IMG/VR virus record: IMGVR_UViG_3300025423_000028
Span: 1-53,086 of that record
Length of the DNA stretch: 53,086 nucleotides
DNA from: a virus
Lineage: Duplodnaviria; Caudoviricetes
Reading direction: 5' to 3' (one strand)
The notes under the pieces are model-generated. The model ran no database searches. It saw only the letters and a program-made list of their open reading frames with translations, and was not told the DNA's origin. The position numbers and the translations under genes were made by a program. Positions 8,148 through 52,782 of this stretch are shown one piece after another (position 1 is the first letter of the stretch; each line of letters opens with the position of its first letter).

Positions 8148-8181
8148 ATTTTCTCCTTACTATTTTTTATTATACACTACG

Positions 8182-8253
8182 TGCCTCCACTCAGACTCGA
8201 ACTGAGATCCCAGGGTTAGAACTCCTTTGCACTGTCCCTTGTGCTATAGAGGC
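8182..8253 (-). tRNA. tRNA-Arg(TCT) with atypical anticodon arm
   Basis: GCCTCTA/TGGAGGC acceptor, GCAC/GTGC D stem with A20, loop GT-TCT-AA, CTCAG-TTCGAGT-CTGAG T arm. Confidence 0.8.
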
Positions 8254-8259
8254 GTAAAA

Positions 8260-8538
8260 CTAATAAATAAGATCGTCCAATTCTTCTAGTGTACCATATT
8301 GTAACACTGATATGCCATTAAAAATTTCATCAAAATTTTCTTCAACAGTATTCATAATGTCATAAATTTTATCGATATCACCATACGGGCTAATTTGTGT
8401 CATGCGATGAGCTGCCCTTAGGTTGTGGCCAATGATCCACGACCTTGAATCATAATATTTATTTTTATCAAATATCATTTTGCCACAACCGCAAGCACAT
8501 TCTATTTGTTCAATTTCGACTCTATACTGCGGTGACAT
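8260..8538 (-). CDS. Hypothetical protein with CxCGCG..GHN motif
   Basis: ECACGCG and WIIGHN, a metal-binding module often N-terminal to phage endonucleases; no nuclease domain follows. Confidence 0.55.
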   Translation of the reverse strand: MSPQYRVEIEQIECACGCGKMIFDKNKYYDSRSWIIGHNLRAAHRMTQISPYGDIDKIYDIMNTVEENFDEIFNGISVLQYGTLEELDDLIY

Positions 8539-8834
8539 TAGTGCTTCACTCCATGATCATCATCAAACTTCTTGTGCTCCTTGCGCCAGAGTCGCTTACC
8601 CCAAGCAAGGCCTACAGCCAAGATTACCAGGTCTTCCACTGTAGAGTAGAACAGCTCAGCGGTAGCGTGTGGTGCATCTGTGATCAAACCTACAGCTTTT
8701 TGTAGGTAACCAGACCCACCTGGTTGTTCACCAATCCATTGAGAATGGATAAGGTGCACAGCGCCAATGATTGCAAAAAGAATGATTATTACTATTACTG
8801 GTACTGCTAGGAAAAACTTATTCCTACTCTTCAC
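8538..8834 (-). CDS. Small membrane protein
   Basis: N-terminal hydrophobic helix and a second hydrophobic segment; AAGGAG SD. Confidence 0.6.
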   Translation of the reverse strand: MKSRNKFFLAVPVIVIIILFAIIGAVHLIHSQWIGEQPGGSGYLQKAVGLITDAPHATAELFYSTVEDLVILAVGLAWGKRLWRKEHKKFDDDHGVKH

Positions 8835-8846
8835 TTCTACTCCTTA

Positions 8847-9080
8847 CTAGTTGGTATCAAAGATATTAACATCAATTCCGTTGGCACGCAAAACATTTAA
8901 TGCTTCTTCATAAACAGGATTATTAAGAGTGTTAGCTGCGGGGGCTGCACTTTTAAGTATACCCTTAATCCACATACTATTAGCTGAGTAATTACTAAAC
9001 GCCGCTACCAATTTTGGCTCAGCAGGAATCTTGCACAACTCTAGCATGATTGTGGCTGCTTGTTTTAAATTCATTGTCAT
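8847..9080 (-). CDS. Hypothetical protein
   Basis: 77-aa ORF, AAGGAG SD right after tRNA-Trp. Confidence 0.6.
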   Translation of the reverse strand: MTMNLKQAATIMLELCKIPAEPKLVAAFSNYSANSMWIKGILKSAAPAANTLNNPVYEEALNVLRANGIDVNIFDTN

Positions 9081-9090
9081 ACTAACTCCT

Positions 9091-9164
9091 TGGCCCGGGT
9101 GCTAGGAATTGAACCTAGTCGAGCGGTTTTGGAGACCGCCATGCTACCGTAACATCTCACCCGA
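9091..9164 (-). tRNA. tRNA-Trp(CCA)
   Basis: GCGGT-CT-CCA-AA-ACCGC anticodon arm, GGTTCAATTCC T loop, encoded 3' CCA. Confidence 0.92.
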
Positions 9165-9192
9165 ATATCTTATGAATTAAATCTTTTATTTG

Positions 9193-9263
9193 TGCCTCAA
9201 GCAGGAATCGAACCCACATTAGATCATTACAAGTGACCTGTACTACCATTGTACTATTGAGGC
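9193..9263 (-). tRNA. tRNA-Thr(TGT)
   Basis: GCCTCAA/TTGAGGC acceptor, GGTCA-CT-TGT-AA-TGATC, GGTTCGATTCC. Confidence 0.9.
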
Positions 9264-9266
9264 TAA

Positions 9267-9287
9267 TACCAACTGAGCTACAAGGGC
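9267..9287 (-). pseudogene. 5' fragment of a deleted tRNA gene
   Basis: GCCCTTGTAGCTCAGTTGGTA = acceptor 5' strand, TA, D stem and D loop, then truncated. Confidence 0.65.
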
Positions 9288-9294
9288 TACTGCG

Positions 9295-9369
9295 TCGGGT
9301 AGGAGGGATTCGAACCCCCGATCTCGAAGACCCAAACTTCGCGGATTAACCAAGCTTTCCTACTACCCG
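9295..9369 (-). tRNA. tRNA-Pro(TGG)
   Basis: CGGGTAG/CTACCCG acceptor, CGAAG-TT-TGG-GT-CTTCG, GGTTCGAATCC. Confidence 0.92.
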
Positions 9370-9434
9370 TTGTTGGGAAGTTTATCCTCATTCCCAGGAG
9401 TTTGCTGCATCTACGGTATTTGCTTCGTTCGGAG

Positions 9435-9508
9435 TGCTCCTGGTAGGACTCGAACCTACAACCTCGAAATTAAAAGTTTCTTGCGCTAACCAATTGCGCC
9501 ACAGGAGC
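9435..9508 (-). tRNA. tRNA-Lys(TTT)
   Basis: GCTCCTG/CAGGAGC acceptor, AGAAA-CT-TTT-AA-TTTCG, GGTTCGAGTCC. Confidence 0.92.
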
Positions 9509-9711: not shown

Positions 9712-10050
9712 CTATTCCTTAATAAATTTCTTATATTTGTTTTTGTTTTCGATGAGATACTTTGGGTAATATTCTTCATCAAATTCTACCAGTTTTAATT
9801 CAAAACCCCGGCCAAATACATCTGTGTTCTCATCAAAGTTACTATCCACATTGCTGTTTATAGCATCGTTGTTTAATTCTGTATGAGCAAAAGCTTTGAT
9901 CTTGTCCTTAATAAAAGCAGTATCACCAATATAAGTCCAATGCCAACCGCCATTGGGGATATGGATAGAGTTGTCACCCAAACGAAGACCTGTCGCCCAG
10001 AATCCTTCTCTACGGTATTCACCAACGCTGCATGTTACGAAGCCTTGAAC
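9712..10050 (-). pseudogene. C-terminal remnant of a GT17-like (beta-1,4-GlcNAc transferase) glycosyltransferase
   Basis: NGGWHWTYIG..IKDKIKAFAHTE..DVFGR..YPKYL; frame stays open upstream of 9981 to about 10050 without an ATG; N-terminal part missing. Confidence 0.65.
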
Positions 10051-11306
10051 TTACGGGCTGTGCGTGCCTTGTTAGTAGCTCTGTTAAAAACGTTGATCCA
10101 TTGCTTGCAAATGTTTTCCCAAGTATTTTCTTTCACCCAGGCGTAAGCATTCTCTGCTCGTTCGGCAGCTTCCTCTGGGTGTTCCATGATGTACTTGATA
10201 GTTTCAGCAGCTTCTTCTACATCCATCAGCGGGCGCATACGCTCGTTGTCGTTCTCTTTGATGATCCAGTGTGTTGGTGTGTGACCGCTCTGGACTCTCC
10301 AACCACGGTCTTCACCAAGGATTTCTGGTACTGATGTGTTGTTGGGAGCAATGACTGGAAGCTTCGTTGCCATAGCTTCGGTGATACTCAAGCCCCAACC
10401 CTCACCATGCGTTGTAGTAAGGTAAGCGTCACTAGCGTTGTAAATACCATTCAAAAATTCAATTGGAAATCCGCTGTGTGCACCAAACTGACGTGGGTCT
10501 GGGATAGTGAAATCACTATCAGGGTTTAGACCAATTGATGCGGCCATCTGCATGATGCTACCGCCAAAATCCGTTTCTTGCATATGCATATAAAGGAATG
10601 CGTTCTTCATTCCAATGTTGTGCAGCTGCTTAAGGATCATTAGGCTTCTAGAAACATCTTTACGTCCCTGGTTCCGGTTCACATTGGTGATAATAAAACG
10701 GTCTTGCAAAACTGGTGGGAAGATGGCCTTCCTTGTTTCTTGTTTCTGTTCGGGCGTAAGAGGAAAGAAGTCATTGGTATTGGTACCGTGGTAAATAACA
10801 TCCTGCTTGTCAGCAATCGCTCCAACAAACTTGCGACTTTCATCTTTAGCGTATTTTGTATAGGCGACAGGGAAGTCAAAGCTAGTAACGCATTGCTTAA
10901 CCCATTCTTCACGTGGCGTACAATCGAATGGGTAGTAATAGATAGTCGAGAAAGTATTTGGCTTCGTTCGCTGCAGCTCAAGAATCTGAGGAACAATAGG
11001 CAAAACAATAAAAGTGTCTTGGACAATGAAAACAATGTCATAATTGTTTTGACCAAGGAGGTCAAGAAAAACCTGACGACCGAATACGTCACCGTAAGGG
11101 CCCTGTGTGCGGAGTGCACTGATAGCAGGCCAAAGTCTTCCTGGCCACTTTGAGGTGTCGTATGGGCCACCATCGTAGTTAACACCGACAACATCGATCT
11201 CATAGCTTCCAGTGTTGTTGATCTCACTCATGATGTTCTTCATCACTGTACCGAAGCCAGTACTACACGCGTAGTCACCCCACGCCAATACTTTGATCTT
11301 GCTCAC
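10035..11306 (-). CDS. Glycosyltransferase, GT-B fold (GT4-like)
   Basis: STGFG, IYHG, NRNQGRKD, EGWGLSITEAMATKLPVI (EX7E motif). Confidence 0.92.
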   Translation of the reverse strand: MSKIKVLAWGDYACSTGFGTVMKNIMSEINNTGSYEIDVVGVNYDGGPYDTSKWPGRLWPAISALRTQGPYGDVFGRQVFLDLLGQNNYDIVFIVQDTFIVLPIVPQILELQRTKPNTFSTIYYYPFDCTPREEWVKQCVTSFDFPVAYTKYAKDESRKFVGAIADKQDVIYHGTNTNDFFPLTPEQKQETRKAIFPPVLQDRFIITNVNRNQGRKDVSRSLMILKQLHNIGMKNAFLYMHMQETDFGGSIMQMAASIGLNPDSDFTIPDPRQFGAHSGFPIEFLNGIYNASDAYLTTTHGEGWGLSITEAMATKLPVIAPNNTSVPEILGEDRGWRVQSGHTPTHWIIKENDNERMRPLMDVEEAAETIKYIMEHPEEAAERAENAYAWVKENTWENICKQWINVFNRATNKARTARKFKAS

Positions 11307-11308
11307 AA

Positions 11309-11998
11309 CTATCTCCAGTCTTTAGGACTTAACGTACTATCATTATAGGGTTTATTGTATACTTCATGCAAGTCTTTCTTCGCACTACCCCATTTTCTAA
11401 CATAATATTCGCCAGACTTTAGTGAGTTTATAGGTAGTGTTAACTTCTTAGTTGATTGGTGCCTAAGGTGCGCGTATGGAACATCCGTTTGAAGTGTTTT
11501 ATAACCAAGCAATTTAATGCGGTATTTCATGTCAGCGTCTTCCCACCATGCTGGGTCGAAGTTTTCATCAAATGTGCCACATAGATCAAAAAAATCTGGT
11601 CTAATAGCGAAGCAAGAAAAGCTTTGGTCTTCTGCATTCTTATTGCCAGAAAACTCTTCGTCTTCTATGAAAAGAATGTCTGTTGGGTCTGCTAACTCAT
11701 CCAGCACGTCAACTGGGAATGCCATGACAAAGTTATCTACCATGGCAAGAGTCTCTACAGCCAAGCGATCGATAGTGCCTGGTGCAAAGATTGCGTCATC
11801 GTTGCTAACAATAATGACATCACAGTTATCAAAGATAGCCTCACGAATACCTTTGTTCCAGGCTGCCGCCAATGGCACTTGGTAACGATACTGTGGGCGA
11901 ATATAAATCTTAAGTTCGTTATTACTCTTAGCTGAATAGACCAGATCAATAGCTTGATCAAAATTATTTAAAACTGGGACAACGAGTCCGATTCGCAT
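11309..11998 (-). CDS. Glycosyltransferase, GT-A fold (GT2-like)
   Basis: LVVPVLNN, AAAWNKG, SNDD, GTFDENF..WEDADMKYR. Confidence 0.88.
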   Translation of the reverse strand: MRIGLVVPVLNNFDQAIDLVYSAKSNNELKIYIRPQYRYQVPLAAAWNKGIREAIFDNCDVIIVSNDDAIFAPGTIDRLAVETLAMVDNFVMAFPVDVLDELADPTDILFIEDEEFSGNKNAEDQSFSCFAIRPDFFDLCGTFDENFDPAWWEDADMKYRIKLLGYKTLQTDVPYAHLRHQSTKKLTLPINSLKSGEYYVRKWGSAKKDLHEVYNKPYNDSTLSPKDWR

Positions 11999-12366
11999 TC
12001 TTCCTTCTTCCTTTTAGGGCCGCGCTTCTTTTTACTTGACTTGATTGCTACTGCCTGCTGTTGTTTTGTTATTTCGGCAACAACTTCTAGTGTAGATTCG
12101 TAGTCGATATCAATCAACTTAATACCAAGTTCCTGGCGTAGCACTCTACGTTGCTTAGTGCTAGTACCTGCCCAGTAACCATAATCTTCATAAAGCAATG
12201 CATGGTTCAAACAATTATCGTAAACGGGGCATGTAGTGCATAGCAACAATGCTTCTTTATCTGGGCTTTTACCTTGTCCAGGGTAGAAAGCATCGTATTT
12301 TTCAGCTGATAGCGCAGAACAAGAAGCGTCCTTTTGCCAGCTATAATCAATGGTTGTATTTTCCAT
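11968..12366 (-). CDS. whiB: WhiB-family Fe-S transcription factor
   Basis: WQ..ASC, FYP, CTTCPV..C (four Cys), GYWAGT turn, basic C-terminal tail. Confidence 0.9.
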   Translation of the reverse strand: MENTTIDYSWQKDASCSALSAEKYDAFYPGQGKSPDKEALLLCTTCPVYDNCLNHALLYEDYGYWAGTSTKQRRVLRQELGIKLIDIDYESTLEVVAEITKQQQAVAIKSSKKKRGPKRKKEECESDSLSQF

Positions 12367-22776: not shown

Positions 22777-24612
22777 TTAAGCCACCGCCACACAGCGCCA
22801 CTTAGAAGTGGAACCATTATAAATAAAGCCAACAGTTAGGGGAAGAGTCGTTGAACCATTCGATGTAGTGGGAGCAGATACCTGTGAATTTTCAGTATTT
22901 GTCCAGCTAATAGTTTGAGCAACTGCGCTAAAATCGAGGATGCGAACTATCGCCTGCATACCGTCTACTGCACCAGTAGTAGACATAGTAATAGCTAGGG
23001 TTGCCGCAGAGTTGTTGGTTACCTTAGTAGACGTATAGGTTGATCCACTAACGGTGGCTGCATTGGATGTAGCAGTAATGCTTGCAACGTTAGGTAGATA
23101 AGCATTTGATGTAATTGTACCACTAAAAGTAGCATTACCAACATGGGTAGAGGTACCTGTTACAAATAGTGTGCCACTACTAGTTAAGCTAGATGAAAAA
23201 ACACCAGAAGTTCCATTAATATTGGCAGCAGAGACTAAACCACCTGCTCCACCAACAGTTATATAACCTGAAGTTCCTGATCCACTTACAGATACATAAC
23301 CACTACCCAGAGTAGTGGTACCGGTGACAGTAAGTCCTGATGTTACTGTAAGGGTGCTCTGGACTGATGAAGCACCCTGTAGGATAAGACCACCGGTAAT
23401 AGAATTATTATAGATTACTCCAAGTCCGGGGTTATATGTCAGTACATAGCCAGTAGCTGGACCATAACCTGAGTTATAGTTGGCAATATAGTTGGTTGAA
23501 GGAACGGTTTGCCCATTATAGGCTAGTGTACCACTAATATTTATACCACCACTAACAGTAAGACCTGAAGCAACCGTAAGGTTGCCGCTTATAGTACCAC
23601 CAGAATATGGGAATTTAGCAGCAAGATCTGTAGTTAAATTAGTTACTTGACTTTCAGAGATCTGGATGCCAGTAGCGGTTACAGTACCGCTAACTGTAAG
23701 ACCACTAGCTACAACAAGATTACCCGATACCGTAGTAGTGGCAAGTGTTTTATTACTAAGCGTTTGAGTACCATTTAGAGTTGCAAGAGTATCGGTTGAA
23801 CCAAGGCCAGGGCCAGGAATAATAATTGTTCCTGGGTTTGACCCGCTTACAGAAAGCTGGTAACCACCACCAGTTAGGAAATTTATATTTGTTGCTTGAC
23901 CAAGGGTGATACCGCTGTTGGCAGCGAGTGTGTTGTTAAGAGTGGTTGTGCCTGTAACGGTGAGATTGCCGCCAACTGTCATTGCACCAGTGTCTACTTC
24001 ACTACCAACGGTTAAAGCACCACTAACAGTTAAACCTGATGCAACAACCAAGTTGCCTGAGACTGTACCACCTGAAATAGGTAGATAATTACCAGACACG
24101 GTGCCACCACTGATGGTAGCTGGTGCCCATTGCGTACCGTTGTAGACCAACGATTGGCCATTTGTAGCGGTTACACCACCCACTAGTGGGCTAGTAACGT
24201 ACAAACCACCTTGGAGTGTTGCTGTGCCAGTTACCGTTAAGTTACCACTGATTGTTCCACCAGATATTGGCAAGTAATTACCAGACACAGTTGGTGTAGG
24301 CAATGGAGCAGTAGTGTTTATCTGGCGAGTAACTGGGTCATAAACACCACCGTATAGATAAATACGGTAAAGGCTTGTGCGTTTTTCTACCCACCATACT
24401 TGGTTTGGGCCTAGTTGGTCTATGGAAACACCAGGCGGCATAGCCTGAAGGTCAATTTCGTATTGGAAACCCTTAGTGTCTACGCCATTACAATAATAAT
24501 TCTTTGTTGCAGTCTGCACGCTACTAAATGGGTGAAGTTGTGGCCCTGTTGTAAGGGTAACTTTTCGTACGCCATTGATTCTAAAATTCTGATCTTCTGT
24601 AAAAAAGTTCAT
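22777..24612 (-). CDS. Probable central spike/tail fibre protein
   Basis: About 100-aa N-terminal domain directly after the hub gene, then repeats YLPISGGTISGNLTV, ending WRCVAVA. Confidence 0.65.
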   Translation of the reverse strand: MNFFTEDQNFRINGVRKVTLTTGPQLHPFSSVQTATKNYYCNGVDTKGFQYEIDLQAMPPGVSIDQLGPNQVWWVEKRTSLYRIYLYGGVYDPVTRQINTTAPLPTPTVSGNYLPISGGTISGNLTVTGTATLQGGLYVTSPLVGGVTATNGQSLVYNGTQWAPATISGGTVSGNYLPISGGTVSGNLVVASGLTVSGALTVGSEVDTGAMTVGGNLTVTGTTTLNNTLAANSGITLGQATNINFLTGGGYQLSVSGSNPGTIIIPGPGLGSTDTLATLNGTQTLSNKTLATTTVSGNLVVASGLTVSGTVTATGIQISESQVTNLTTDLAAKFPYSGGTISGNLTVASGLTVSGGINISGTLAYNGQTVPSTNYIANYNSGYGPATGYVLTYNPGLGVIYNNSITGGLILQGASSVQSTLTVTSGLTVTGTTTLGSGYVSVSGSGTSGYITVGGAGGLVSAANINGTSGVFSSSLTSSGTLFVTGTSTHVGNATFSGTITSNAYLPNVASITATSNAATVSGSTYTSTKVTNNSAATLAITMSTTGAVDGMQAIVRILDFSAVAQTISWTNTENSQVSAPTTSNGSTTLPLTVGFIYNGSTSKWRCVAVA

Positions 24613-36457: not shown

Positions 36458-37179
36458 ATAATTGGCACGTTGTAGTAAGGGTGGCCCGGCCAGACGTTCT
36501 CGAGGGTAGTCTGTTGGTTAACAACTATTGTGGTATTAGAGAATGGTTGTGTTGTTCCTACGCGGTATGGATATTGTGCGCTTGGTCCAGGACCAGTTCT
36601 AATAGTCTGTGGTGAAACTGCACTGACTTGGAACCTCTCACTAGTAGAAGTTGGAGAGCCATTTGACCATGTTTCTACCCGAACAACAAGGTCACCAACA
36701 CGGATCTGTGGGAACCAAGAAAACTGCACTCTAGGGTTCTGCTTCCAGAATTGACCGGTTGATAAGTTAGCACGAGCGTCTTCCGTATCAGCAGCAAGCA
36801 TATACAAGTGGTAACAAGTAGGCTGAAAACCACCTGAGAAAGTAGTGCCATAGCAAGTGGGACAATAACTATTACCTGTCTGCTTATATACGTTGCTTAC
36901 ACGGTTTTGAATTGATGCTGTTGGGTTAGCAGGGTTAGGGCTATCCTGACATTGCTGGCAATAGCCGACTAGTCCTGCGGCAGCATCCTCAGCACGCCAC
37001 ATTAAACGAACGATGCATTCTTCCCCAAACCATTGGAGCGTTTCATCGTGAAAGCGTTGTTGATTGACTTGAGTAAATGTTTCCCGTTGTTTTACAACAA
37101 GCAATGGGCTCTCGAGCTGTGTGTTTAAACCACCACTGCCAGATACAACTGGCCCTGGTACTGGGTTAATACCACTCAT
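36454..37179 (-). CDS. Head-tail joining protein with Zn motif
   Basis: CQQC..CPTCYGTTFSGGF, GDLVVR. Confidence 0.65.
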   Translation of the reverse strand: MSGINPVPGPVVSGSGGLNTQLESPLLVVKQRETFTQVNQQRFHDETLQWFGEECIVRLMWRAEDAAAGLVGYCQQCQDSPNPANPTASIQNRVSNVYKQTGNSYCPTCYGTTFSGGFQPTCYHLYMLAADTEDARANLSTGQFWKQNPRVQFSWFPQIRVGDLVVRVETWSNGSPTSTSERFQVSAVSPQTIRTGPGPSAQYPYRVGTTQPFSNTTIVVNQQTTLENVWPGHPYYNVPII

Positions 37180-37538
37180 TATTTACTCGCTTCATCAATG
37201 GCTTTTTGTCTAGCTTCTAAGGATAGGTTGTACCACATTACGTGATCATTGTGTGCTTTTTTGCAATCTTCGCATGCGCCTTCATTCTCCCTAAGGTGCT
37301 TCATATAACCACCATTAGTTCCACAGGCTGCGGGCTTGAACTCTTGCACACCGCGTTCTCTGTTGCGATTGTTTGCATAATTATTAACAGCTTCTTGGCA
37401 AAGGATACAAGAAGGCTCACTGTTTTTACGGTGCAAGTCATAGCCATACCTAGAGCCACATTGCTCACGATACGTTATTTCGTTAGTAGGCTCTGTTAAC
37501 CTTTTTCTACCAGCTGAATAGCGTTGGTTCCAATTCAT
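37179..37538 (-). CDS. Protein with two Cys/His Zn-binding repeats; probable start MNWNQRY at 37538
   Basis: CGSRYGYDLHRK.EPSCILC and CGTNGGYMKHLR.EGACEDC; the longer 37583 start overlaps the previous gene. Confidence 0.6.
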   Translation of the reverse strand: MNWNQRYSAGRKRLTEPTNEITYREQCGSRYGYDLHRKNSEPSCILCQEAVNNYANNRNRERGVQEFKPAACGTNGGYMKHLRENEGACEDCKKAHNDHVMWYNLSLEARQKAIDEASK

Positions 37539-37551
37539 ATCATACTCAAAA

Positions 37552-38010
37552 CTACCAGTCTTTTGGCACTCCGTCTGGAACATTGTAATCTCTTACATGT
37601 TCTCTTACCGGGATGCCGAGATCTTCTGCATGACTCCCAACAAAATCAATATATGAATCCATGTATGCTTCGTTCTGTTCACGTTGTTGGTCTGATTTCA
37701 TGCACTTTGTACAGTGAGGGAATAATATTTTATGAGAATTTCCCATTGAATGTGCGTCCAAAGAATCGTTACCGCGTTTAGAAATATTTCCCATCTCAGA
37801 CTCAGGGAACCCAGTGCTTTCTGCAAGCCTTAAAAGGATTTTTTGCCTATGATCGTGAAAATCAACAATGTCTTGTACTCGATCGTGGTCTAATTCAGCA
37901 ATCATATCATCATGGACGTGAGGATGCTTTAAATGGCAATTCATAGATGAATTCATTTCATCTTCCCATCCATCATGCTCGCTAGCGTATCTCTTATTCC
38001 AATTCATCAT
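37552..38010 (-). CDS. His/Asp-rich hypothetical protein starting MNWNKRY
   Basis: 152-aa ORF, GGAGG SD, ATGA overlap. Confidence 0.6.
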   Translation of the reverse strand: MMNWNKRYASEHDGWEDEMNSSMNCHLKHPHVHDDMIAELDHDRVQDIVDFHDHRQKILLRLAESTGFPESEMGNISKRGNDSLDAHSMGNSHKILFPHCTKCMKSDQQREQNEAYMDSYIDFVGSHAEDLGIPVREHVRDYNVPDGVPKDW

Positions 38011-40930: not shown

Positions 40931-43900
40931 GACAGACCGACCCAGATGGGCGAGCCGCTAACTGCTGGGGTTCCCGAGATGGTCGTGGGGAGCGAGGTAA
41001 AGCCGGTCAACGTACTGCAACGCTGGTTGAGGGTGTTCGCCGCGACCGTGTTGGGGCCGACGTTGATGGCTGCCGCCGTGGTCTGGTTGTAGGCGAACAG
41101 GTGGCTTGCCGCCGTCGACGTAATTATGCCGAGCCAGTAGACACCCGAGTTGGTCGGGGTGTAGGCGGTGCCGAAACTGCCGGAAGCCTGCGTGTTGCTC
41201 GGTGGCGTCGTGGCGATGTTACCCGTGACAGCCAACTGCGTCGTGGCATTGTAGAGGCCGACCGTGACGTAACTGCTACCGACACCCGTGGCGATGATGA
41301 CATAGACGTTGGAGTAGGTCACGCCCGCTTGGAGGTAGACCGCCATGAAGTAGACCGTGCTGGTCGCCAGCGTTAGACCACCCGTAGCCACCGTGTTTGT
41401 TGCTGCGTCATACGTCCATGCAGTTAGACCGTTGAGCGACGGTGGGGTCATGGCGACTGGGGTGGCGTAGGAGAGCGATGAGCCGTTTGAGGTCAACACC
41501 GTGCCGTTAGAGCCGACGGAGGTGAGGTTCGTGCCACCGTTAGCAACTGCGAGCGTTCCGGTTACGTTGCTGGTAAGCGACAGCGTTCCAATGAGGTTTG
41601 ACAAGTTGTTGCTGTTTGTCATGTACCAATTGCCGCCGTTGTAGTTCACAAAACTCAACGTGCCATAGGCGGACAAGGTGTAGGTGGTAACGCTTGAGCC
41701 CGAACCGAGTGGGTACATAGAGTTAGCAAAACTCAACGTAACTGGGTTGGCGCTGTTGTTAATGAGTGTCCAGGAGGAACCGTCAATGGGGTTGCTGGGT
41801 GTCGAAAGCGTTTGACCTGCGGCTCCGGTGAATACCGTTATCTCGTTGCGTCCGACCGTTGCCGTTGCCGAGCGCAGGACAAGGTGGTTCGAGATAGTGG
41901 TAGACCAGCCAGCCGTTGAGCCGGTGTAAACCCACACGGTTGCGGTCTGGTCAACAACAAAGTCACCAACCGTCCACGTTCCTGAAGCTGGTGCGCCGTT
42001 AACCGTGCCACCGACGAAGCGAGCGCCAGCCGTTGCACCCGTGAGACCAGTAGACGAGGAATATTGACCAGTAATACCACTTGTGACTGCAACGGTACCA
42101 CTAAACGTAGCATTGCCAATCTGTGTAGCTGTGCCGGTTACAGTGATGTTACCGCCTACGTTTAAGTTGCCTGCATCCATTTCACTACCAACGGTGATGG
42201 CACCTGTCACGGTCAATGATCCAGATATTGTTCCACCAGATGTCGGAACAAAGTTTCCTGTCCATGCTGCTGTGGCTCCATTAGATACGAGAGCAGTACC
42301 GCTTGTACCAATTGCTAAGTTAGTGTAGACAGATCCATTACCAATAAGCATTGAACCACTTGTAGCAGTAAGCTGAGAGCCCGTACCACCGTTATTGACA
42401 GAAAGCTTACCGGCAGAAGTGTTTGACATGTTGTTGGAGAACAACATGTTCCAGAAAGTACCGTTATATACAAAGAAAGACATTTCAACACCAGCATTCT
42501 GCGTTGAATATGTTGTGGTTCCGCTTGTCGAGTTAAATGGAGCAATGGTAGTTCCATTGCCGTTCAATGTAATTGGACCACTAGCTGGGTGAGCATAAAT
42601 ACCATAGGTAGAACCAGATGGTGGGTTTGATGGCAAATAGAATGTTAAACCACTGCCTGTAGTCCAGGTGAACTCATCAACTGTGCATGGTGATCCTGAT
42701 GTTGTGCTCGTAGTACGCACAACGAAGTTATAACCATTAACTAGTACACCAGAAGGTACTGTTGATCCATTGAAGGTGATTGCACCGCTAGCAGTTAAAC
42801 CACTAAGGACTGTCAGAGCACCAGAGATTGTGCCACCAGAACGTTGTAAAGCATCGTAAGCTACACCACTAACGGTGTTAAGATTGCCTGAAATTAGAGC
42901 GATAGAGCTCGTGTGTCCAGTAACAATACCAGATGTTGTGTTGTATGCACCGCTCAAAGTAACGAACTGACCTGAAAGCGTAGCAAGATTAGCAACAGTC
43001 CCTGTTACCGTTGAGTTGGCATTGATGATGGCATTAACAACACCGCTAACTGCTGTGGTGCCAACTAAGGTTGCAGCTACAGCTCCTGTCCCAGTTGCAG
43101 TAACGTCACCAGTAAGTGAAGTGATTCCTCCACCGCTTCCTCCACCGCTAACCGTTGCTGGCACCCATTGTGTGCTATTCCATACGATAGCTTGCCCGCT
43201 GGTAGCAGTTACACCACCAATGATGGGGCTGGTGATGTTCAATGCACCACTGATCGTACCGCCTGATCTTTGCAGAGCTCCATATGCCACGCCGCTAACA
43301 GTATTGAGGCTACCCGACGTAGAAGCGTATGAACCGCTTAGCGCTACAAACTGACCAGAAAGAGTTGCCAAACTACCTGACAAGCTGACAATATTTGCTT
43401 CATCTACAATTTGTTTGTTAGCAACGTATTCCAGCTGAATTGAAATGTTATTGATGTTTGTCTCATCAACAATTTGATTATTCGATATGGTTGTAATTTG
43501 GCTACCCTGGCCACTTACGGTGCCACTAAGGGCTATGTAGTTGTTAGTTAGCATAGACGCTGATGTGTTGAATTGAAGATCATCTACAGCTGTTCTAACA
43601 GGGAATACATTGAATCCCGATGAAGTGCCGATAGCGTGAGCGTAAGGAGTCGTTCCATCCCAGCCACGTCCATTGTATGTGCCATCAGTCCATACAGGGA
43701 TTACTGCGTTTGCACCAATAGTGATAGCACCTGAAGCACAAAGGATCTTCTCTTCCGTGCCCAAGCCGTAGTCAACTACAAGGGTGAAAACACCACTAGT
43801 TCCAAGGGGGTTAGTAGTGGCAGTGCCGCTCGAGCTTACTTCGTACCAACCTGCTGTATTTGCCAAGGTCAATGCTTGACCGCTTGTGTACCCACTGATA

Positions 43901-47500: not shown

Positions 47501-48519
47501 GATGAGTATCCGCTACTAGGAACTGAAGTGGGAAATATTTGAAAACCACCGCTAGTGGTTCCTACTATCTGTTGGTTTTGGTTGTAATCATTTGGAGTCG
47601 TTCCAGTGATTACAACGGTTTGGCCAACTACAAAATTATTAGATCCTAGATATGTTACAGTTGGGGAAATTGAAGGGTTACCACCTGACACATAAAGGTC
47701 AGTTACATAGTTGTTATATGCAACATAAAAACTTGATGCTGTACAAGAAGTAATTGGCAGAGCCGTAATGTTAAAAGCTGTCCCAGATCCAGCATTTCCT
47801 GTAGCACCAGTTACAGTAACCAATTGACCTGGGATGAAGTTGTTGTTACATATATATAGTGCACCACCATTAGAATCAGCAAACCCACCAGAACCAGAAA
47901 TGCCAGCAAAAGCTGACGATGTAGACTGCACACTAAAAGAGGAAGCAGTAACTGAAGTTACCACCCAGTTATCACTAAATATAGTCGGAGATGTTTCAAA
48001 TACGCTTATTGGCTCTCCGACCACAAATGGATTGGCATACCCACCGGCTGTATTAAAAGTAATTGTATATGGACTGCTACTACCGCTTACAGTGATGTTA
48101 TTAATGTTTACAGTGCTTTGCCCATAAGCAAAACCACCAGAACTATAACTATCACCAGAAACTGTTGCGTTTGTAGTAAAAGAAGATGTTGTTACACGCG
48201 TTATGGTTGCAAAGACGTTAAACAACCCACTTGTTGAGACAATGTTTTTTGTTCTTACAAGTTGTCCAACTACAAAAGGATTGGTTCCACTAACAAAATA
48301 AGTAGGGGTTGAATTGGATAAATTTGCGCCACTGATCGTAGCGGAGACACCAATGTTATAAGAAATAGCATTGGTAATTGGACCACCCGTATACGTAACC
48401 GGGTTGTTATAGTATGCACCAGTAATGGTTACGTCAGGATAACCCCAGTTAACCTGTGGTTGATTCCAGTACCAAGTGTTAGGGTACCCACTAACAATTT
48501 GAAAAGCGTAGTCAGCCAT
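44527..48519 (-). CDS. Large virion surface/adhesin-like protein; probable start MADY at 48519
   Basis: Five FxxGxxVx(I/V)-type beta repeats, a beta-helix-like middle and a LamG-like region; TAATG coupling at 48519. Confidence 0.65.
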   Translation of the reverse strand: MADYAFQIVSGYPNTWYWNQPQVNWGYPDVTITGAYYNNPVTYTGGPITNAISYNIGVSATISGANLSNSTPTYFVSGTNPFVVGQLVRTKNIVSTSGLFNVFATITRVTTSSFTTNATVSGDSYSSGGFAYGQSTVNINNITVSGSSSPYTITFNTAGGYANPFVVGEPISVFETSPTIFSDNWVVTSVTASSFSVQSTSSAFAGISGSGGFADSNGGALYICNNNFIPGQLVTVTGATGNAGSGTAFNITALPITSCTASSFYVAYNNYVTDLYVSGGNPSISPTVTYLGSNNFVVGQTVVITGTTPNDYNQNQQIVGTTSGGFQIFPTSVPSSGYSSGGIASVFPVNGDSVTFYGLSAPVTTSGNINLGNGSISIYNNSSLSLSGSYIGNLYLDTNGNFTTNNNSCTLSTLTANNLSTINFGSSNIVINSGPTSSGDLTPTIAINGSVTSQYSAGASIVLSNTLPYGSVVSYNGTSTTLPPITYSGQGPLYFYDATGTGSTFPLSNLTFSPTLSTTTSGNNLIISSGSNLVINGLFTVSGINQFTNGVGHVPTYIASDQSIVYTPSWSYTPSTITASSLAIKYVIFQNIKVSGVANWSSPDATGWGDGGGNSGITFSPSISGYFYNAAVTSGNWSDAKWYTSTSGNGGVVRNPLPQDIAVFDKNSAKSNATIKVDPPLIPGFNATTFTGTLNFFNPNYFIFSSISLGSKTTGSPNWILLGSNVNTITSNGYKWPRATYIDLYPGSTVMLQDNFSTALALTVNSGTLSANNPNINSVVLQNFTVGPSGKVIMGGTSSNPQAWAVSGTWTFKNTSSGALTSNYGSIQLTNLSTSTFYGGNQQYYSLTMPSGASYTAYTTFTISGNNSFTNFIGPKTATSPSPSPLQQTNGFGWTVNFNGNNSFNSLLFYPMTTVGFQGTKQTINYLNANSFRTYGNIFDNTITNVSGNASQYQTNGDVDVRTFINPVSWQPTTATAIIKDSTGADGWTFGLNPATGNNLGLYFSYKDSTGIINTVSGTLSLNSIPTNASWVNVTRSQSTGVVTFNYSPDPGTGDLPITWPYSVSVTSATGSITMGQKPAIIAGSTNFGQFLRAQVYNGISGYNPSPYYIGSSVSVSGATYTITSGAYTYIYQLVSPLANTNDFHIGANVNVTGFSGGVNPASNPYNGSYVVSNAVVSGTTFSVIGSGVPTATVGDFPGPDQDFYALASIITAWWPSTSSTSGTTTQPPSGTYVGPVLDLNFTTVPFGTYSFNESSKYGSVWNTISNRDGALIINGGTLSVASVATMNYVVLNGVTASGNPIYALNSTLKGTNNNVLTSNFPMYYTQRLG

Positions 48520-50117
48520 TATACGATTCCAACAATGCGCCAAGCTCCACTAGGGTTAATCGTTAGATCCCAAACAAATGCGTAATCTACACGACCTGAA
48601 GAGGGTGGAACTGTAGGCAGTGCAATGCTAGAAGGCTCAAAACTTCCCGCTGTCCAAGCAGAACCAGGAATGTTAAATGGCCCTGCAATATTGGTGAAGG
48701 CAATGCGTATTGTTTTTTCACCTGATACTGTATTGCTTGCAAATGCCATGGATGTAACTGAAACGCCTTGTCCGCTAACTAATACTACATCATAATTAGC
48801 AGGGTTTACAGAAGATAAAGGTGTTGCTGAGCCCGGGACTGTAATTACACGGGGATTACCATCGATAATACCGGTGACAATTCTTCTTACGTTTGCTGTG
48901 TCGTTTAGGATTGGAGCTGGGTAAGTTCCAATCAAGTCACCAGCGGCAGAAATGCCACTGATAGTGGTAAGAACGTTATTTCCGCTTACAGTCAAACCAC
49001 TTGCTACAGCAAGGTTGCCAGTGATAGAACCACCGGCTGATGGCAACGCTGCATAAGCTACACCACTAACTGTATTCAAGTTGCCTGATGTAACTGCGTA
49101 TGATCCACTCAAGGCTACAAACTGGCTGGTTAGCGTGGTTACATTGCCGCTAGTTACAACATACTGGCCACTAAGAGTTGTCAAGCTCCCTGAAGTAGAT
49201 ACGTACTGGCCACTAAGTGTAGCCAAATTAGAATTGGTAGTCGTTATATTCCCACTAATATTAGTAAGATCAGTTACAAGACCAGTAACTTGGTTTTTGG
49301 TAATCTGAATACCAGTTGCTGTTACCGCACCGCTAACGGTCAAACCGCTGACAACTGTTAAGTTGCCTGATATTGTTCCACCTGAGATTGGCAAGAAATT
49401 GCCTGATGTCCCACCAGAAATTGTAATTGGTGTCCACGCAGTGTTATTCCATACCAAGCTTTGACCGCTAGCTGGAGTAGAAGACGAAATGGGGTAGCCT
49501 TGTAGAGTAGTGGCATTGGTACCACTGGCTCCACCACCACTAATTGAGATTGGCAACCATTGCGTGCCATTGTAAACTATTGACTGGCCAGAAGTTGCTG
49601 CTATGCCACCAACATAAGGACTGGTGAAATATACACCACCTTGGAACGTTGAAGAACCAGTAACCGTTAAGTTACCAGTGATAGTTCCACCAGAACGTTG
49701 TAAAGCACCGTAAGCTACACCACTAACGGTGTTAAGACTACCGCTTAGAGAAGCAATGTTGCCTGTTGCGGTAGTTACAATCCCGCTAGTAGTGTTATAC
49801 TGACCAGATAACGTAACAAATTGACCGCTTAGGGTTGTTAATGATCCACTAAGGTTGGCAATATTATTGGCGTTCGTATTCAGTGCGCCTGAAATATTTG
49901 TTAAGTCAGAAGTAAGATTTGTAACTTGGCTTTCAGTGATTTGGATACCAGTTGCAGTAACTGTTCCACTAACAGTTAAACCTGAAACAACTACTAAGTT
50001 GCCACTAATCGTGCCGCCAGTAAGAGGAAGATAGTTGCCTGATGCTGTACTAAAATTACCCAAAAATGCTTGAACCAGGTTACTTCTGGTAGCACTAGTC
50101 AATACCGTGTTCATCAT
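48519..50117 (-). CDS. Fibre protein with SG heptad coiled coils
   Basis: Repeats shared with the 22777 and 40927 fibres; ends WRIVGIV. Confidence 0.7.
   Translation of the reverse strand: MMNTVLTSATRSNLVQAFLGNFSTASGNYLPLTGGTISGNLVVVSGLTVSGTVTATGIQITESQVTNLTSDLTNISGALNTNANNIANLSGSLTTLSGQFVTLSGQYNTTSGIVTTATGNIASLSGSLNTVSGVAYGALQRSGGTITGNLTVTGSSTFQGGVYFTSPYVGGIAATSGQSIVYNGTQWLPISISGGGASGTNATTLQGYPISSSTPASGQSLVWNNTAWTPITISGGTSGNFLPISGGTISGNLTVVSGLTVSGAVTATGIQITKNQVTGLVTDLTNISGNITTTNSNLATLSGQYVSTSGSLTTLSGQYVVTSGNVTTLTSQFVALSGSYAVTSGNLNTVSGVAYAALPSAGGSITGNLAVASGLTVSGNNVLTTISGISAAGDLIGTYPAPILNDTANVRRIVTGIIDGNPRVITVPGSATPLSSVNPANYDVVLVSGQGVSVTSMAFASNTVSGEKTIRIAFTNIAGPFNIPGSAWTAGSFEPSSIALPTVPPSSGRVDYAFVWDLTINPSGAWRIVGIV
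49687..49737. repeat. 51-bp direct repeat, copy 2
   Basis: Matches 42833..42883 with one mismatch. Confidence 0.9.
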
Positions 50118-52158: not shown

Positions 52159-52782
52159 CTAACCTCTAGTGCGGTTAACCTGATAAGTTACATCAAAGTG
52201 TTCTCCATTAATAGTCCCATGTTCTTCGAACTCAATGAGCTCTTTCTCTGTTATTACAAGGTATTTATCACCCAGTAATCTTTGAGCAGTTTCGATTTTT
52301 ACAACCGAATCAAAGTTCATGTAACCTTTAACTTCAACAATGCGTTCATCTCTGCCAGCAATGAAGTCTGGGCGGTAAGTCCCTACGGGAGTCTCAATGT
52401 CGTCACCGTCATATCTTCTCCATGCGATTCCGTATCTCATGCAGCAAGCTGCAAAACGGATTTCCCATGTTGAGTGGAATACAACGGCGGCATCATTAAG
52501 TTCCATAACGAACTTGTCCCTAATGCTCTTTTGTTCCTTGTGAGAACATTTGTTAGAGCAGTATTTCATTGCTGATCGATAGGTTTCAGGTCTAGTAAAA
52601 GATTCACCACAGCCTACACAAATAGCCGATTTAGTTCTCGGCACTTGTTTTAAACCCTTTCTCCGTCCTTCATCTGCACAGCGTTTTGAGCAGTACATCG
52701 TCTTACGTGAATAAGCGAGATAATCTTTCTCGCATACCATGCAGATGAAGGGTTCGGAGTAGGGAGTAGTTCTGTGAGCCAT
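52159..52782 (-). mobile_element. Free-standing putative homing endonuclease (two Zn-finger repeats + PD-(D/E)XK domain)
   Basis: CxxC..YCSxxC twice; STWE..FA, YRPDF, EVKGY; flanked by duplicated capsid C-terminus. Confidence 0.8.

What the first reader, a model, noticed from the sequence alone, without database searches (positions are those of the whole stretch)
49050..49866. Coiled coils with Ser-Gly fixed at the e-f positions of nearly every heptad
Seen: IANLSGS-LTTLSGQ-FVTLSGQ-YNTTSGI-VTTATGN-IASLSGS-LNTVSGV, repeated later in this gene and twice in the 1015-aa fibre. Established: Gly destabilises helices and f is the most exposed coiled-coil position. Inference: beta-turn preference cannot explain this, making it the strongest sign that SG is a modification site, giving a bottle-brush fibre.
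Basis: partly seen in the sequence, partly recalled or inferred. Interest (0 to 1): 0.7.

Follow-up and report, generated by a model that had tools for sequence, protein, structure and literature searches.

The report
Charge-free Ser-Gly heptads in phage fibre
A tail-fibre gene of an uncultured freshwater phage holds two stretches of seven-residue repeats that most likely form a three-stranded helical rod with Ser-Gly on nearly every turn, an unusual uncharged version of a known phage rod, with no evidence so far that the Ser-Gly pairs carry sugars.

Summary
The 532-aa gene (48519..50117, minus strand) has two heptad arrays, residues 58-134 and 270-353. [ST]G sits at positions e-f in 8 of 11 and 8 of 12 heptads. 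The 1015-aa fibre has two more arrays. Sixteen [ST]G pairs lie exactly 7 apart, against a mean of 0.73 (maximum 6) in 10,000 shuffles.

A trimer model (score 0.85, best control 0.00) gives in-register a/d contacts and leaves Gly(f) outside. An AlphaFold2 segment model is helical over residues 62-107. The nearest solved sequence is the coiled-coil shaft of the P22 tail needle gp26, aligned in register, which itself has E-G and D-G at e-f. Indels inside arrays come in multiples of 7.

The sugar-site reading is not supported. Distant relatives keep Gly at f with Q, E, A, N or D at e, so the Gly does not depend on a Ser. Ser looks like the uncharged substitute in a lineage whose virion proteins have only 4-9% charged residues.

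It is not excluded either. A GT4 glycosyltransferase is present in 12 of 12 large related records, so no transferase-less relative could be examined. A beta-roll fold is a minority rival. Verdict: a new variant of a known kind, of moderate interest.

The parts
48519..50117 (-). 532-aa modular fibre protein carrying the two heptad arrays
   Evidence: ORF. No Pfam family reaches its cut-off. Matches PHROG 'tail needle protein' phrog_1219 at E 3.4e-6 over residues 62-135. 27 metagenomic relatives. DEKR 3.9%, S+T+G+N 49.6%.
49716..49946 (-). Heptad array 1, residues 58-134, 11 heptads, [ST]G at e-f in 8
   Evidence: Trimer model contacts fall at a, d, e and g only. AlphaFold2 gives a helix over residues 62-107 at pLDDT 82-98. 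Hydrophobic periodicity peaks at 3.5 residues.
49059..49310 (-). Heptad array 2, residues 270-353, 12 heptads, SG at e-f in 8
   Evidence: Aligns with array 1 with gaps of 7 residues.
49947..50033 (-). Gly/Ser/Thr-rich module before array 1 (residues 29-57, motif GGTISGNL...SGLTVSG), probably beta
   Evidence: Repeated at residues 241-269. It holds nearly invariant columns of alignment A1. The pattern [VI][AT]SGLTV[ST]G matched 194 stretches in viral contigs, of which 26 (20 loci) were confirmed as relatives.
49311..49397 (-). Second copy of that module before array 2 (residues 241-269)
49647..49715 (-). Array exit motif (residues 135-157, VAYGAL..SGGTITGNL), intertwined in the trimer model
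   Evidence: All residues 143-166 are in the interface. Invariant in the four window arrays. Weak match to a fibre protein, 2wst, E 0.19.
48963..49058 (-). Second exit motif (residues 354-385)
48522..48962 (-). C-terminal domain (residues 386-532), beta strands in a low-confidence model; possible receptor-binding head (inference)
   Evidence: AlphaFold2 strands at 424-428, 444-448, 468-475, 513-520 and 526-531, pLDDT about 40-59.
43288..43392 (-). Array A of the 1015-aa fibre (residues 195-229, SG in 5 of 5 heptads)
42862..42987 (-). Array B of the 1015-aa fibre (residues 330-371, SG in 5 of 6 heptads)
10035..11306 (-). GT4 (GT-B fold) glycosyltransferase, the candidate enzyme of the sugar hypothesis; target unknown
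   Evidence: PF00534 40.2 bits against a cut-off of 26.4. phrog_2170 E 1.1e-43. Orthologue at 63-82% identity in 12 of 12 related records of 71 kb or more.
11309..11998 (-). Second, GT-A-like transferase next to the GT4; accessory
   Evidence: phrog_29879 'galactosyl transferase' E 5.6e-12. PF00535 17.8 bits, under the cut-off of 23.3. Found beside the GT4 in 2 of 6 relatives' loci.

Best explanation
The gene encodes a modular tail-fibre protein of an uncultured myovirus of low-GC, probably freshwater, Actinobacteria. Its two heptad arrays most likely form parallel, in-register, three-stranded alpha-helical coiled-coil rods. Each rod is entered and left through Gly/Ser/Thr-rich beta modules.

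The heptad consensus is h-[AVTN]-T-h-S-G-[QSN]. Positions a and d make the core. Ser(e) and the polar g residue line the seams between helices. Thr(c) and Gly(f) face the solvent.

The arrays act as length-setting spacers. Relatives carry from 4 to 45 heptads per array, and they gain or lose whole heptads.

Ser-Gly is best read as two separate things. Gly at f, together with Thr at c, is an inherited trait of this class of phage fibre heptads. It is also seen with E, D, Q, N or A at e in distant relatives and in the solved P22 gp26 shaft. Ser at e is the uncharged replacement used by a lineage whose virion-exposed proteins are almost free of charged residues.

Shown: the pattern, its statistics, its conservation and the heptad-unit indels. 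Modelled, not measured: the helix and the trimer. Inferred: the spacer role and the reason for Ser. Why Gly is kept at f remains unexplained.
For: Pattern and statistics.

Trimer of residues 52-168 (ESMFold2, three copies): score 0.85 in all three runs, best of 3 controls 0.00. This mark was reached by 21 of 30 proteins solved as pairs and by 0 of 23 solved as single chains. The runs agree in at least 97% of contacts, and the partner's pLDDT is at least 93. The least-error contacts are same-residue or i+/-3/4 pairs at a and d (86-86, 89-89, 93-89, 103-107, 124-128). Gly at 91, 98, 105, 112, 119 and 126, and all b and c positions, are in no interface list.

AlphaFold2 on the segment gives a helix over residues 62-107 at pLDDT 82-98. 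The ESM Atlas's own model of this protein matches long-helix proteins over residues 52-168. That is the same model family as the trimer, so it is not independent.

Hydrophobic power at period 3.5 is 70.9 (array 1) and 27.0 (array 2), against 1.7 and 0.3 at period 2.0.

The best PDB sequence match is P22 gp26 (4lin_A, E 0.026), aligned heptad on heptad, with E-G and D-G at e-f. Passages of PMC3741392 describe that shaft as a three-strand coiled coil with 11-16 heptads.

Indels inside arrays: 28 residues between P0007 and P0009 (520 of 555 columns identical), 7 residues between P0015 and P0019, and 7-residue gaps among the window's own four arrays.

With arrays defined by a/d alone, 65 of 121 stored proteins gave 1173 heptads. 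Gly at f occurs in 814 of 911 heptads with S/T at e and in 102 of 262 with another residue at e. Four proteins with no S/T at e keep Gly at f in at least half of their heptads.

The 17 low-charge virion proteins have 3.7-12.6% charged residues (fibres, sheath and baseplate 4-9%) against 22-37% in replication and other non-structural proteins.
Against: No experiment exists; helix and trimer are predictions.

AlphaFold2 on the full-length monomer (13-sequence alignment) gave no helix in either array, with mean pLDDT 42. In the segment model the second half of array 1 is low-confidence, at pLDDT about 40.

A profile of the arrays matches the Lolium ice-recrystallisation-inhibition beta-roll (3ult, itself made of ..TVSG.. 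heptads) about as well as gp26: E 0.073 against 0.053.

The arrays are rich in Thr, Ser, Gly, Asn and Val, which are poor helix formers (established propensities, my reading).

In the SG-anchored arrays positions e and f are less variable than the core (entropy 1.18 and 0.85 bits against 2.53 for a and d). That count was ascertained through [ST]G anchors. A plain 'uncharged surface' rule does not predict this, and the explanation gives no reason for Gly.

The distant hits were retrieved with a profile that contains S and G. They prove that x-G heptads exist, not how common they are.
Confidence: 0.6

Rival explanations
1. The arrays are coiled coils whose Ser(e) is O-glycosylated in the cytoplasm by the phage GT4, with or without the neighbouring GT-A enzyme. 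Gly(f) gives the enzyme or the sugar room, so the fibre is a sugar-coated 'bottle brush'. The same h-S-G motif elsewhere on the virion would then be part of a glycan coat.
For: A GT4 gene lies in the window. It is a core gene of the lineage, present in 12 of 12 array-bearing records of 71 kb or more at 63-82% identity, whereas the fibres are only 35-43% identical.

A second transferase lies beside it.

The GT4's best solved relative is the chlorovirus glycosyltransferase B736L (3oy2, E 6.7e-5). Its best cultured relative, in Tetrasphaera phage TJE1 (38% identity), sits in a nucleotide-sugar gene cluster just upstream of the terminase genes.

S-G is enriched directionally in the 17 low-charge virion proteins: 268 observed against 108.5 expected, with G-S at 0.89 and T-G at 0.84 of expectation. 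In 18 other proteins it is not enriched (16 against 15.7).

Virion glycosylation is reported for mycobacteriophages Che8, Corndog and Myrna. I saw this only as passages in PMC12363180 and PMC11256854; the primary paper, Freeman 2023, is not held.

In the array counts, e and f are the least variable positions.
Against: No direct evidence of any glycan.

Gly at f persists with Q, E, A, N or D at e in relatives and in gp26, so it needs no Ser.

T-G is not enriched, although O-transferases often take Thr as well (general knowledge).

TJE1 carries the closest cultured GT4 but has no array of 4 or more [ST]G heptads (no row for L027) and only mild S-G excess in some tail proteins.

The stretch of Myrna around its sheath gene shows S-G near expectation in most proteins, with the sheath at 2 against 1.9.

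The GT4 matched no mycobacteriophage among 13 phage records. It scores 14-15 bits against the protein O-glycosyltransferase models GtfA and SdgB, whose cut-offs are 574.6 and 800.

The co-occurrence of GT4 and arrays lies within one lineage, so it counts as a single event.

The second transferase is missing beside the GT4 in 4 of 6 relatives, and those four records have long arrays.

Other roles have been proposed for such transferases in freshwater actinophages, namely DNA or cell-wall modification (PMC10202952, part 1 of 2 of the text read).
Confidence: 0.15
2. The arrays are not helical. Each heptad is one short strand plus an S-G turn of a beta-roll or triple beta-helix, as in the grass ice-binding protein. 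S-G would then have the same turn role as in the rest of the fibre.
For: Pfam LbR_Ice_bind gives a sub-threshold hit (17.1 bits, cut-off 30) on residues 282-353, and PF21300 is precomputed for 5 of the 27 relatives.

The array profile matches 3ult at E 0.073. In that alignment positions c, d, e and f (T, V/L, S, G) correspond.

The composition favours beta (my reading of established propensities). The full-length AlphaFold2 model has no helix there. Some relatives show a 14-residue alternation (L028).
Against: There are two hydrophobic positions 3 and 4 apart (a and d, with large L/Y/F/I/V at a), where the beta-roll repeat has one.

Hydrophobic power sits at period 3.5, not 2.0.

Two predictors give helices.

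Single-heptad indels occur and arrays have both odd and even heptad counts, whereas a roll of two heptads per turn should prefer even numbers.

The arrays align in register with the gp26 coiled coil.
Confidence: 0.18
3. The pattern is a by-product of low-complexity composition or of recent tandem duplication of DNA, without selection on Ser-Gly.
For: The protein is 49.6% S+T+G+N.
Against: Shuffles never come near the observed phasing: maximum 6 against 16 observed. No DNA tandem repeat was found. Codons differ between heptads. The pattern is kept in relatives of 35-50% identity.
Confidence: 0.02

Closest known systems
Coiled-coil shaft of the P22 tail needle gp26 and its relatives (PDB 4lin, 4zxq; 2POH as cited in PMC13580157)
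   Same: It is a trimeric phage fibre built of heptads with V/I/L at a and L/A at d. Thr is frequent at b and c, and Gly occurs at f (VTTAEGE, VSALDGR). The window's heptads align with it in register. The heptad number varies between relatives, 11 to 16 (PMC3741392 passages).
   Different: gp26 has charged or amide residues at e and g, and Gly at f in only 2 of the 6 aligned heptads. Here e is Ser and f is Gly in about 80-90% of heptads, and charged residues make up 42 of 3948 array positions. The similarity is marginal (E 0.026-0.05) and limited to the heptads. There is no gp26 N-terminal plug domain. The host phage is a myovirus, and the protein is a side or baseplate fibre, not a podovirus needle.
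Lolium perenne ice-recrystallisation-inhibition protein beta-roll (PDB 3ult; Pfam PF21300 LbR_Ice_bind)
   Same: It has seven-residue repeats ending in S-G, with T and V before them. E-values are comparable to those for gp26.
   Different: It has only one hydrophobic position per heptad. The Pfam cut-off is not reached. It is a plant monomeric protein. Models of the phage arrays are helical.
Segmented fibre proteins with a coiled coil followed by a beta domain (reovirus sigma-1, PDB 6gaj; T4 fibritin, recalled)
   Same: A trimeric coiled coil alternates with non-helical segments inside one fibre. Sigma-1 appears among the weak profile matches (E 2.1).
   Different: There is no significant sequence similarity. 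Those proteins have ordinary charged heptads.
Repeat adhesins hyper-glycosylated on Ser by cytoplasmic GT4 enzymes (staphylococcal Ser-Asp repeats with SdgA/SdgB; serine-rich repeat proteins with GtfA/GtfB); recalled, apart from the NCBIfam models named
   Same: This is what the sugar hypothesis would work like: a short Ser-containing repeat, many copies, and a soluble GT4 transferase.
   Different: The window's GT4 scores 14-15 bits against those models (cut-offs 574.6 and 800). Those substrates are disordered stalks, not coiled coils. No glycan is shown here.
Virion glycosylation in mycobacteriophages Che8, Corndog and Myrna (Freeman 2023, seen only as cited in PMC12363180 and PMC11256854)
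   Same: It occurs in actinobacteriophages with their own transferases. Myrna's sheath is a distant relative of this phage's sheath (27% identity).
   Different: The reported targets are capsid proteins, and also tail tube as I recall, not fibres. The GT4 here matched no mycobacteriophage. The Myrna stretch examined shows no S-G excess.

Membership tests
Trimeric alpha-helical coiled-coil fibre shaft (gp26-like heptads) | Unbroken heptad register with hydrophobic a and d | tested here: met
   All 23 heptads have I/V/L/F/Y at a. Position d is L/I/V/A/T in 22 of 23, with one N. Hydrophobic periodicity is 3.5.
Trimeric alpha-helical coiled-coil fibre shaft (gp26-like heptads) | Alpha-helical secondary structure | tested here: inconclusive
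   By prediction only. The AlphaFold2 segment model has a confident helix at 62-107 and a low-confidence one at 122-142. The full-length AlphaFold2 model has none. The ESMFold2 contact pattern is helical.
Trimeric alpha-helical coiled-coil fibre shaft (gp26-like heptads) | Parallel in-register trimer | tested here: met
   Model only: score 0.85 against a best control of 0.00, with same-residue a and d contacts between chains. It may partly reflect likeness to solved coiled coils.
P22 gp26 tail-needle family | Significant similarity over the protein, including the N-terminal virion-binding domain | tested here: not met
   Only the heptads match: PDB E 0.026, and phrog_1219 E 3.4e-6 with no single stretch passing. 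Not filed as a member.
Grass antifreeze beta-roll (PF21300) | Pfam gathering score | tested here: not met
   17.1 bits against a cut-off of 30.
Grass antifreeze beta-roll (PF21300) | One inward hydrophobic residue per heptad (repeat xxNxVxG, recalled) | tested here: not met
   There are two hydrophobic positions, a and d, spaced 3 and 4 apart.
Protein O-glycosylation system with a GT4 enzyme (GtfA/SdgB type) | Transferase belongs to the GtfA or SdgB equivalog | tested here: not met
   TIGR02918 15.3 bits (cut-off 574.6) and NF047881 14.3 bits (cut-off 800).
Protein O-glycosylation system with a GT4 enzyme (GtfA/SdgB type) | Glycan attached to the repeat Ser | not testable with these tools
   Needs mass spectrometry of virions or of co-expressed protein.
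Mycobacteriophage-type virion glycosylation | Transferase related to those of Che8, Corndog or Myrna | tested here: not met
   A tblastn search of the GT4 against 50,697 phage records gave 13 records, none of them a mycobacteriophage.
   The GT4 is in 12 of 12 array-bearing records of 71 kb or more. The 7 records without it are fragments of 19-56 kb. One of them, called 85% complete, is a tail-module fragment.

The most novel reading that the evidence does not exclude
Ser at e of each heptad, and the several hundred other h-S-G sites on the sheath, baseplate and fibres, are O-glycosylated by the lineage's conserved GT4. These freshwater actinophages would then replace surface charge with a dense glycan coat. 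The coiled-coil fibres would be regular 'bottle brushes', with one sugar per heptad per chain about every 1 nm.
Probability: 0.15. Interest if true: 0.8.

Novelty: new variant of a known kind. Interest (0 to 1): 0.42.

Why it matters
If the rods are helical, this is a natural three-stranded coiled coil with almost no charged residues and a Gly in nearly every heptad. Standard helix-propensity rules disfavour such a sequence, which makes it a useful test case for coiled-coil stability and design.

It also belongs to a wider, lineage-specific oddity: virion surfaces with 4-9% charged residues and a directional 2.5-fold excess of Ser-Gly. That raises a testable question about how phages of very abundant freshwater Actinobacteria keep their particles soluble and adsorb to their hosts.

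If the sugar reading were right, it would extend phage virion glycosylation to fibres and define a simple sequon.

Tried and rejected
1. Looking for transferase-less relatives. Scans of viral contigs with the protein, with alignments A1, A2 and A3, and with two distant proteins gave only one phage lineage plus small fragments. Searches found nothing. One scan of 185,579 bacterial and archaeal genomes with A2 found no relative.

2. Cultured phages. A tblastn search of the fibre against 50,697 phage records gave no match at 1e-5, and only 7 weak matches outside the arrays at E up to 10. BLAST's low-complexity filter probably hides the arrays.

3. Record G016 looked like a nearly complete (85%) 36.8-kb phage without the GT4. 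Its ORFs show it is a tail-module fragment of the same kind of large myovirus, so it was rejected as a GT-less case.

4. The primary paper on mycobacteriophage glycosylation is not held, so the reported attachment sites could not be compared. Literature searches for charge-poor virions or Gly-at-f fibres found nothing relevant.

5. The 229-aa neighbour of the GT4 was compared with the gene before the TJE1 transferase. There is no similarity.

6. Earlier notes of this scan: none on this genome or sequence.

7. Recent DNA duplication as the source of the repeats was rejected.
Full report
WHAT THE WINDOW IS. All long ORFs lie on the minus strand. The genes include a tail sheath, a tube-like protein, a tail assembly chaperone, a tape-measure-sized protein, a hub with an NlpC/P60 domain and baseplate J. 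There are also a SNF2-type helicase, DnaB, a 5'-3' exonuclease and two WhiB-like regulators. The sheath is about 27% identical to those of Mycobacterium, Gordonia and Rhodococcus myoviruses such as Myrna and Skog. GC content is 39-53% along the window. The record is a 53-kb virus fragment, estimated 35% complete, and relatives reach 132 kb. WhiB together with low GC fits the freshwater actinophages described in PMC10202952. The host assignment is an inference.

THE OBSERVATION. The gene is 48519..50117 on the minus strand, 532 aa. The quoted heptads are residues 86-134.

Read in the a-g register, array 1 (residues 58-134) has 11 heptads and array 2 (residues 270-353) has 12. Each has [ST]G at e-f in 8 heptads, and the first two heptads of each array lack it. 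The 1015-aa fibre has arrays at residues 195-229 and 330-371, with S-G in 5 of 5 and 5 of 6 heptads.

Sixteen [ST]G pairs lie exactly seven residues apart. The mean was 0.73 (maximum 6) in 10,000 shuffles, and 3.8 (maximum 12) for the same number of dipeptides placed at random. There is no DNA tandem repeat, and codons differ from heptad to heptad. The pattern is therefore held at the protein level.

IS IT A COILED COIL? Evidence for:
- All 23 a positions are I/V/L/F/Y, and 22 of 23 d positions are L/I/V/A/T.
- Hydrophobic power peaks at period 3.5 and is absent at period 2.
- A three-copy ESMFold2 model of residues 52-168 scored 0.85 in each of three runs, with a best control of 0.00. This mark was reached by 21 of 30 proteins solved as pairs and by 0 of 23 solved as single chains. 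The runs agree in at least 97% of contacts, and the partner's pLDDT is at least 93.
- Its interface lists hold a, d, e and g positions only. The best-defined contacts are same-residue or i+/-3/4 pairs between chains, which is the geometry of a parallel in-register coiled coil. Gly at 91, 98, 105, 112, 119 and 126 is never listed.
- The tool warns that such a pass can come from likeness to solved structures. The calibration also used two copies, not three.
- AlphaFold2 on the segment, with the window's four arrays as the alignment, gives a helix over residues 62-107 at pLDDT 82-98 and a low-confidence helix over 122-142.

Evidence against:
- AlphaFold2 on the whole monomer gave no helix in either array, with pLDDT 42.
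- The composition is poor in helix formers.

Sequence neighbours: the best PDB match is the engineered P22 gp26 needle 4lin (E 0.026), aligned heptad on heptad. Passages of PMC3741392 describe that shaft as a three-strand coiled coil of 11-16 heptads. A profile of the arrays matches the Lolium beta-roll 3ult about equally well, E 0.073 against 0.053. That protein has one hydrophobic position per heptad, not two.

Indels inside arrays are multiples of seven. The closest pair, P0007 and P0009, differs by one 28-residue gap. P0015 and P0019 differ by one 7-residue gap. The window's own arrays differ by 7-residue gaps. Array lengths are both odd and even. Over the 9 pairs aligned, 18 of 87 internal gaps are multiples of 7, and the other 69 are of arbitrary length. 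I did not tabulate gap positions against the array limits.

I put the coiled coil at roughly 0.75-0.8 and a beta structure at about 0.2.

HOW WIDE IS THE PATTERN? A word-indexed search found 27 relatives, all metagenomic. A profile search of 1.84 billion representatives found 106 at E up to 0.001. This is a small family.

In arrays anchored on [ST]G (36 arrays, 564 heptads, 24 proteins) the consensus is:
- a: L/Y/V/I/F
- b: A/V/T/N
- c: T (62%)
- d: L/T/I/V
- e: S (80%)
- f: G (87%)
- g: Q/S/N

Only 42 of 3948 residues are charged. This count is biased by its anchors.

When arrays are defined by a and d alone (65 of 121 proteins, 1173 heptads), e is S in 70% and f is G in 78%. Relatives carry 4 to 45 heptads per array.

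The arrays are joined to at least two different N-terminal anchor domains. One is shared with the window's 1015-aa fibre. The other is shared with its 611-aa baseplate-module protein at 22777..24612. They are therefore shuffled modules.

IS SER-GLY A MODIFICATION SITE? Three results weaken this.

1. Gly at f exists without Ser. Gly follows a non-S/T residue in 102 of 262 such heptads. Four distant relatives with no S/T at e keep Gly at f in at least half of their heptads, as Q-G, A-G, E-G and N/D-G. gp26 has E-G and D-G in a solved coiled coil. These hits were retrieved with a profile that contains the Gly, so they show existence, not frequency.

2. Ser at e fits a virion-wide rule. The sheath (3.7%), baseplate J (5.6%) and the fibres (3.8-5.1%) have hardly any D, E, K or R, and the 17 low-charge virion proteins span 3.7-12.6%. 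Replication and other non-structural proteins have 22-37%. The same holds in related contigs. It does not hold in Myrna, whose sheath has 21%.

3. The nearest cultured carrier of the GT4, Tetrasphaera phage TJE1 (38% identity), has no array of 4 or more [ST]G heptads and little S-G excess.

- S-G is enriched 2.47-fold (268 against 108.5) in the 17 low-charge virion proteins, while G-S (0.89) and T-G (0.84) are not. 243 of these S-G pairs lie outside the arrays, mostly after V, I, A or T.
- The GT4 is a conserved core gene, at 63-82% identity in 12 of 12 records of 71 kb or more.
- A second, GT-A-like transferase sits beside it, though in only 2 of 6 relatives' loci.
- The GT4's best solved relative is a chlorovirus transferase.
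- Virion glycosylation is reported in other actinophages. I saw this only as passages citing Freeman 2023, which is not held.

The co-occurrence of GT4 and arrays lies within one lineage and cannot count as independent support. That includes one that CheckV rates 85% complete but which is a tail-module piece. PMC10202952 proposes DNA or cell-wall modification for such transferases.

Here I find the excess is specific to Ser-Gly and extends into the heptad arrays.

VERDICT. The arrays are most likely coiled-coil spacer rods of a modular tail fibre. They are an uncharged Ser-Gly variant of the gp26-like heptad. The reason for Gly at f is not explained. Glycosylation remains an open minority reading, at about 0.15.

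Noticed in passing
window 15030-50921, minus strand (17 virion genes): Virion-exposed proteins are almost free of charged residues: sheath 3.7%, baseplate J 5.6%, fibres 3.8-5.1% D+E+K+R, with 40-50% S+T+G+N. Replication and other non-structural proteins have 22-37%. Related contigs share this. Myrna's sheath has 21%. I found no mention in the two literature searches run.
   Followed up: partly
same 17 genes: The dipeptide excess is directional. S-G is 268 observed against 108.5 expected (2.47-fold), G-S is 0.89-fold and T-G is 0.84-fold. 243 S-G pairs lie outside the heptad arrays, mostly after V/I/A/T and before T/G/N/A/S. In 18 other proteins S-G is at expectation.
   Followed up: partly
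window 10035-12366, minus strand: A GT4 transferase, a 229-aa GT-A-like transferase and a WhiB gene lie in a row. GT4 next to WhiB is kept in all 6 relatives' loci examined; the GT-A gene is kept in 2 of 6. The closest cultured GT4 is in Tetrasphaera phage TJE1, inside a nucleotide-sugar gene cluster.
   Followed up: partly
window 43393-43476 (residues 167-194 of the 1015-aa fibre); L028: Heptads with polar core positions (Q at a, D at d, as in QIVDE.N) precede array A. They alternate with S-G heptads in a 1666-aa relative. This is reminiscent of the ion-binding polar layers described for gp26 in PMC13580157. Not examined further.
   Followed up: no
window 8181-9508, minus strand: Five tRNA genes: Arg-tct, Trp-cca, Thr-tgt, Pro-tgg and Lys-ttt. 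None is for Ser or Gly.
   Followed up: no
window 48517-48543: The 1338-aa ORF is listed from a TTG at 48543. An ATG at 48519-48517 overlaps the TAA stop of the 532-aa gene by one base (TAATG). This is a likelier start and suggests coupled translation.
   Followed up: partly
window 52159-52782, minus strand: A 207-aa gene matching an HNH endonuclease family (phrog_1271, E 5e-19) sits just upstream of the fibre genes. It may be a homing endonuclease.
   Followed up: no
window 37179-37583 and 11968-12366, minus strand: There are two WhiB-like genes. One lies among the structural genes (PHROG match only, E 3.9e-14). The other lies next to the transferases (Pfam WhiB, 51.5 bits).
   Followed up: no
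L053 and L054 (record G016): A 36.8-kb viral record rated 85% complete is in fact a tail-module fragment of a myovirus of this lineage, whose relatives reach about 130 kb. It has a sheath, a tape-measure-sized protein, a hub and baseplate J, and it ends inside a 1055-aa gene.
   Followed up: yes
window 49647-49715 and 48963-49058: The motif after each array (..AL..SGGT[IM][ST]G.L.V..) is invariant in the window's four arrays. It weakly matches a solved fibre protein, 2wst (E 0.19). It may be the start of a beta-spiral.
   Followed up: no
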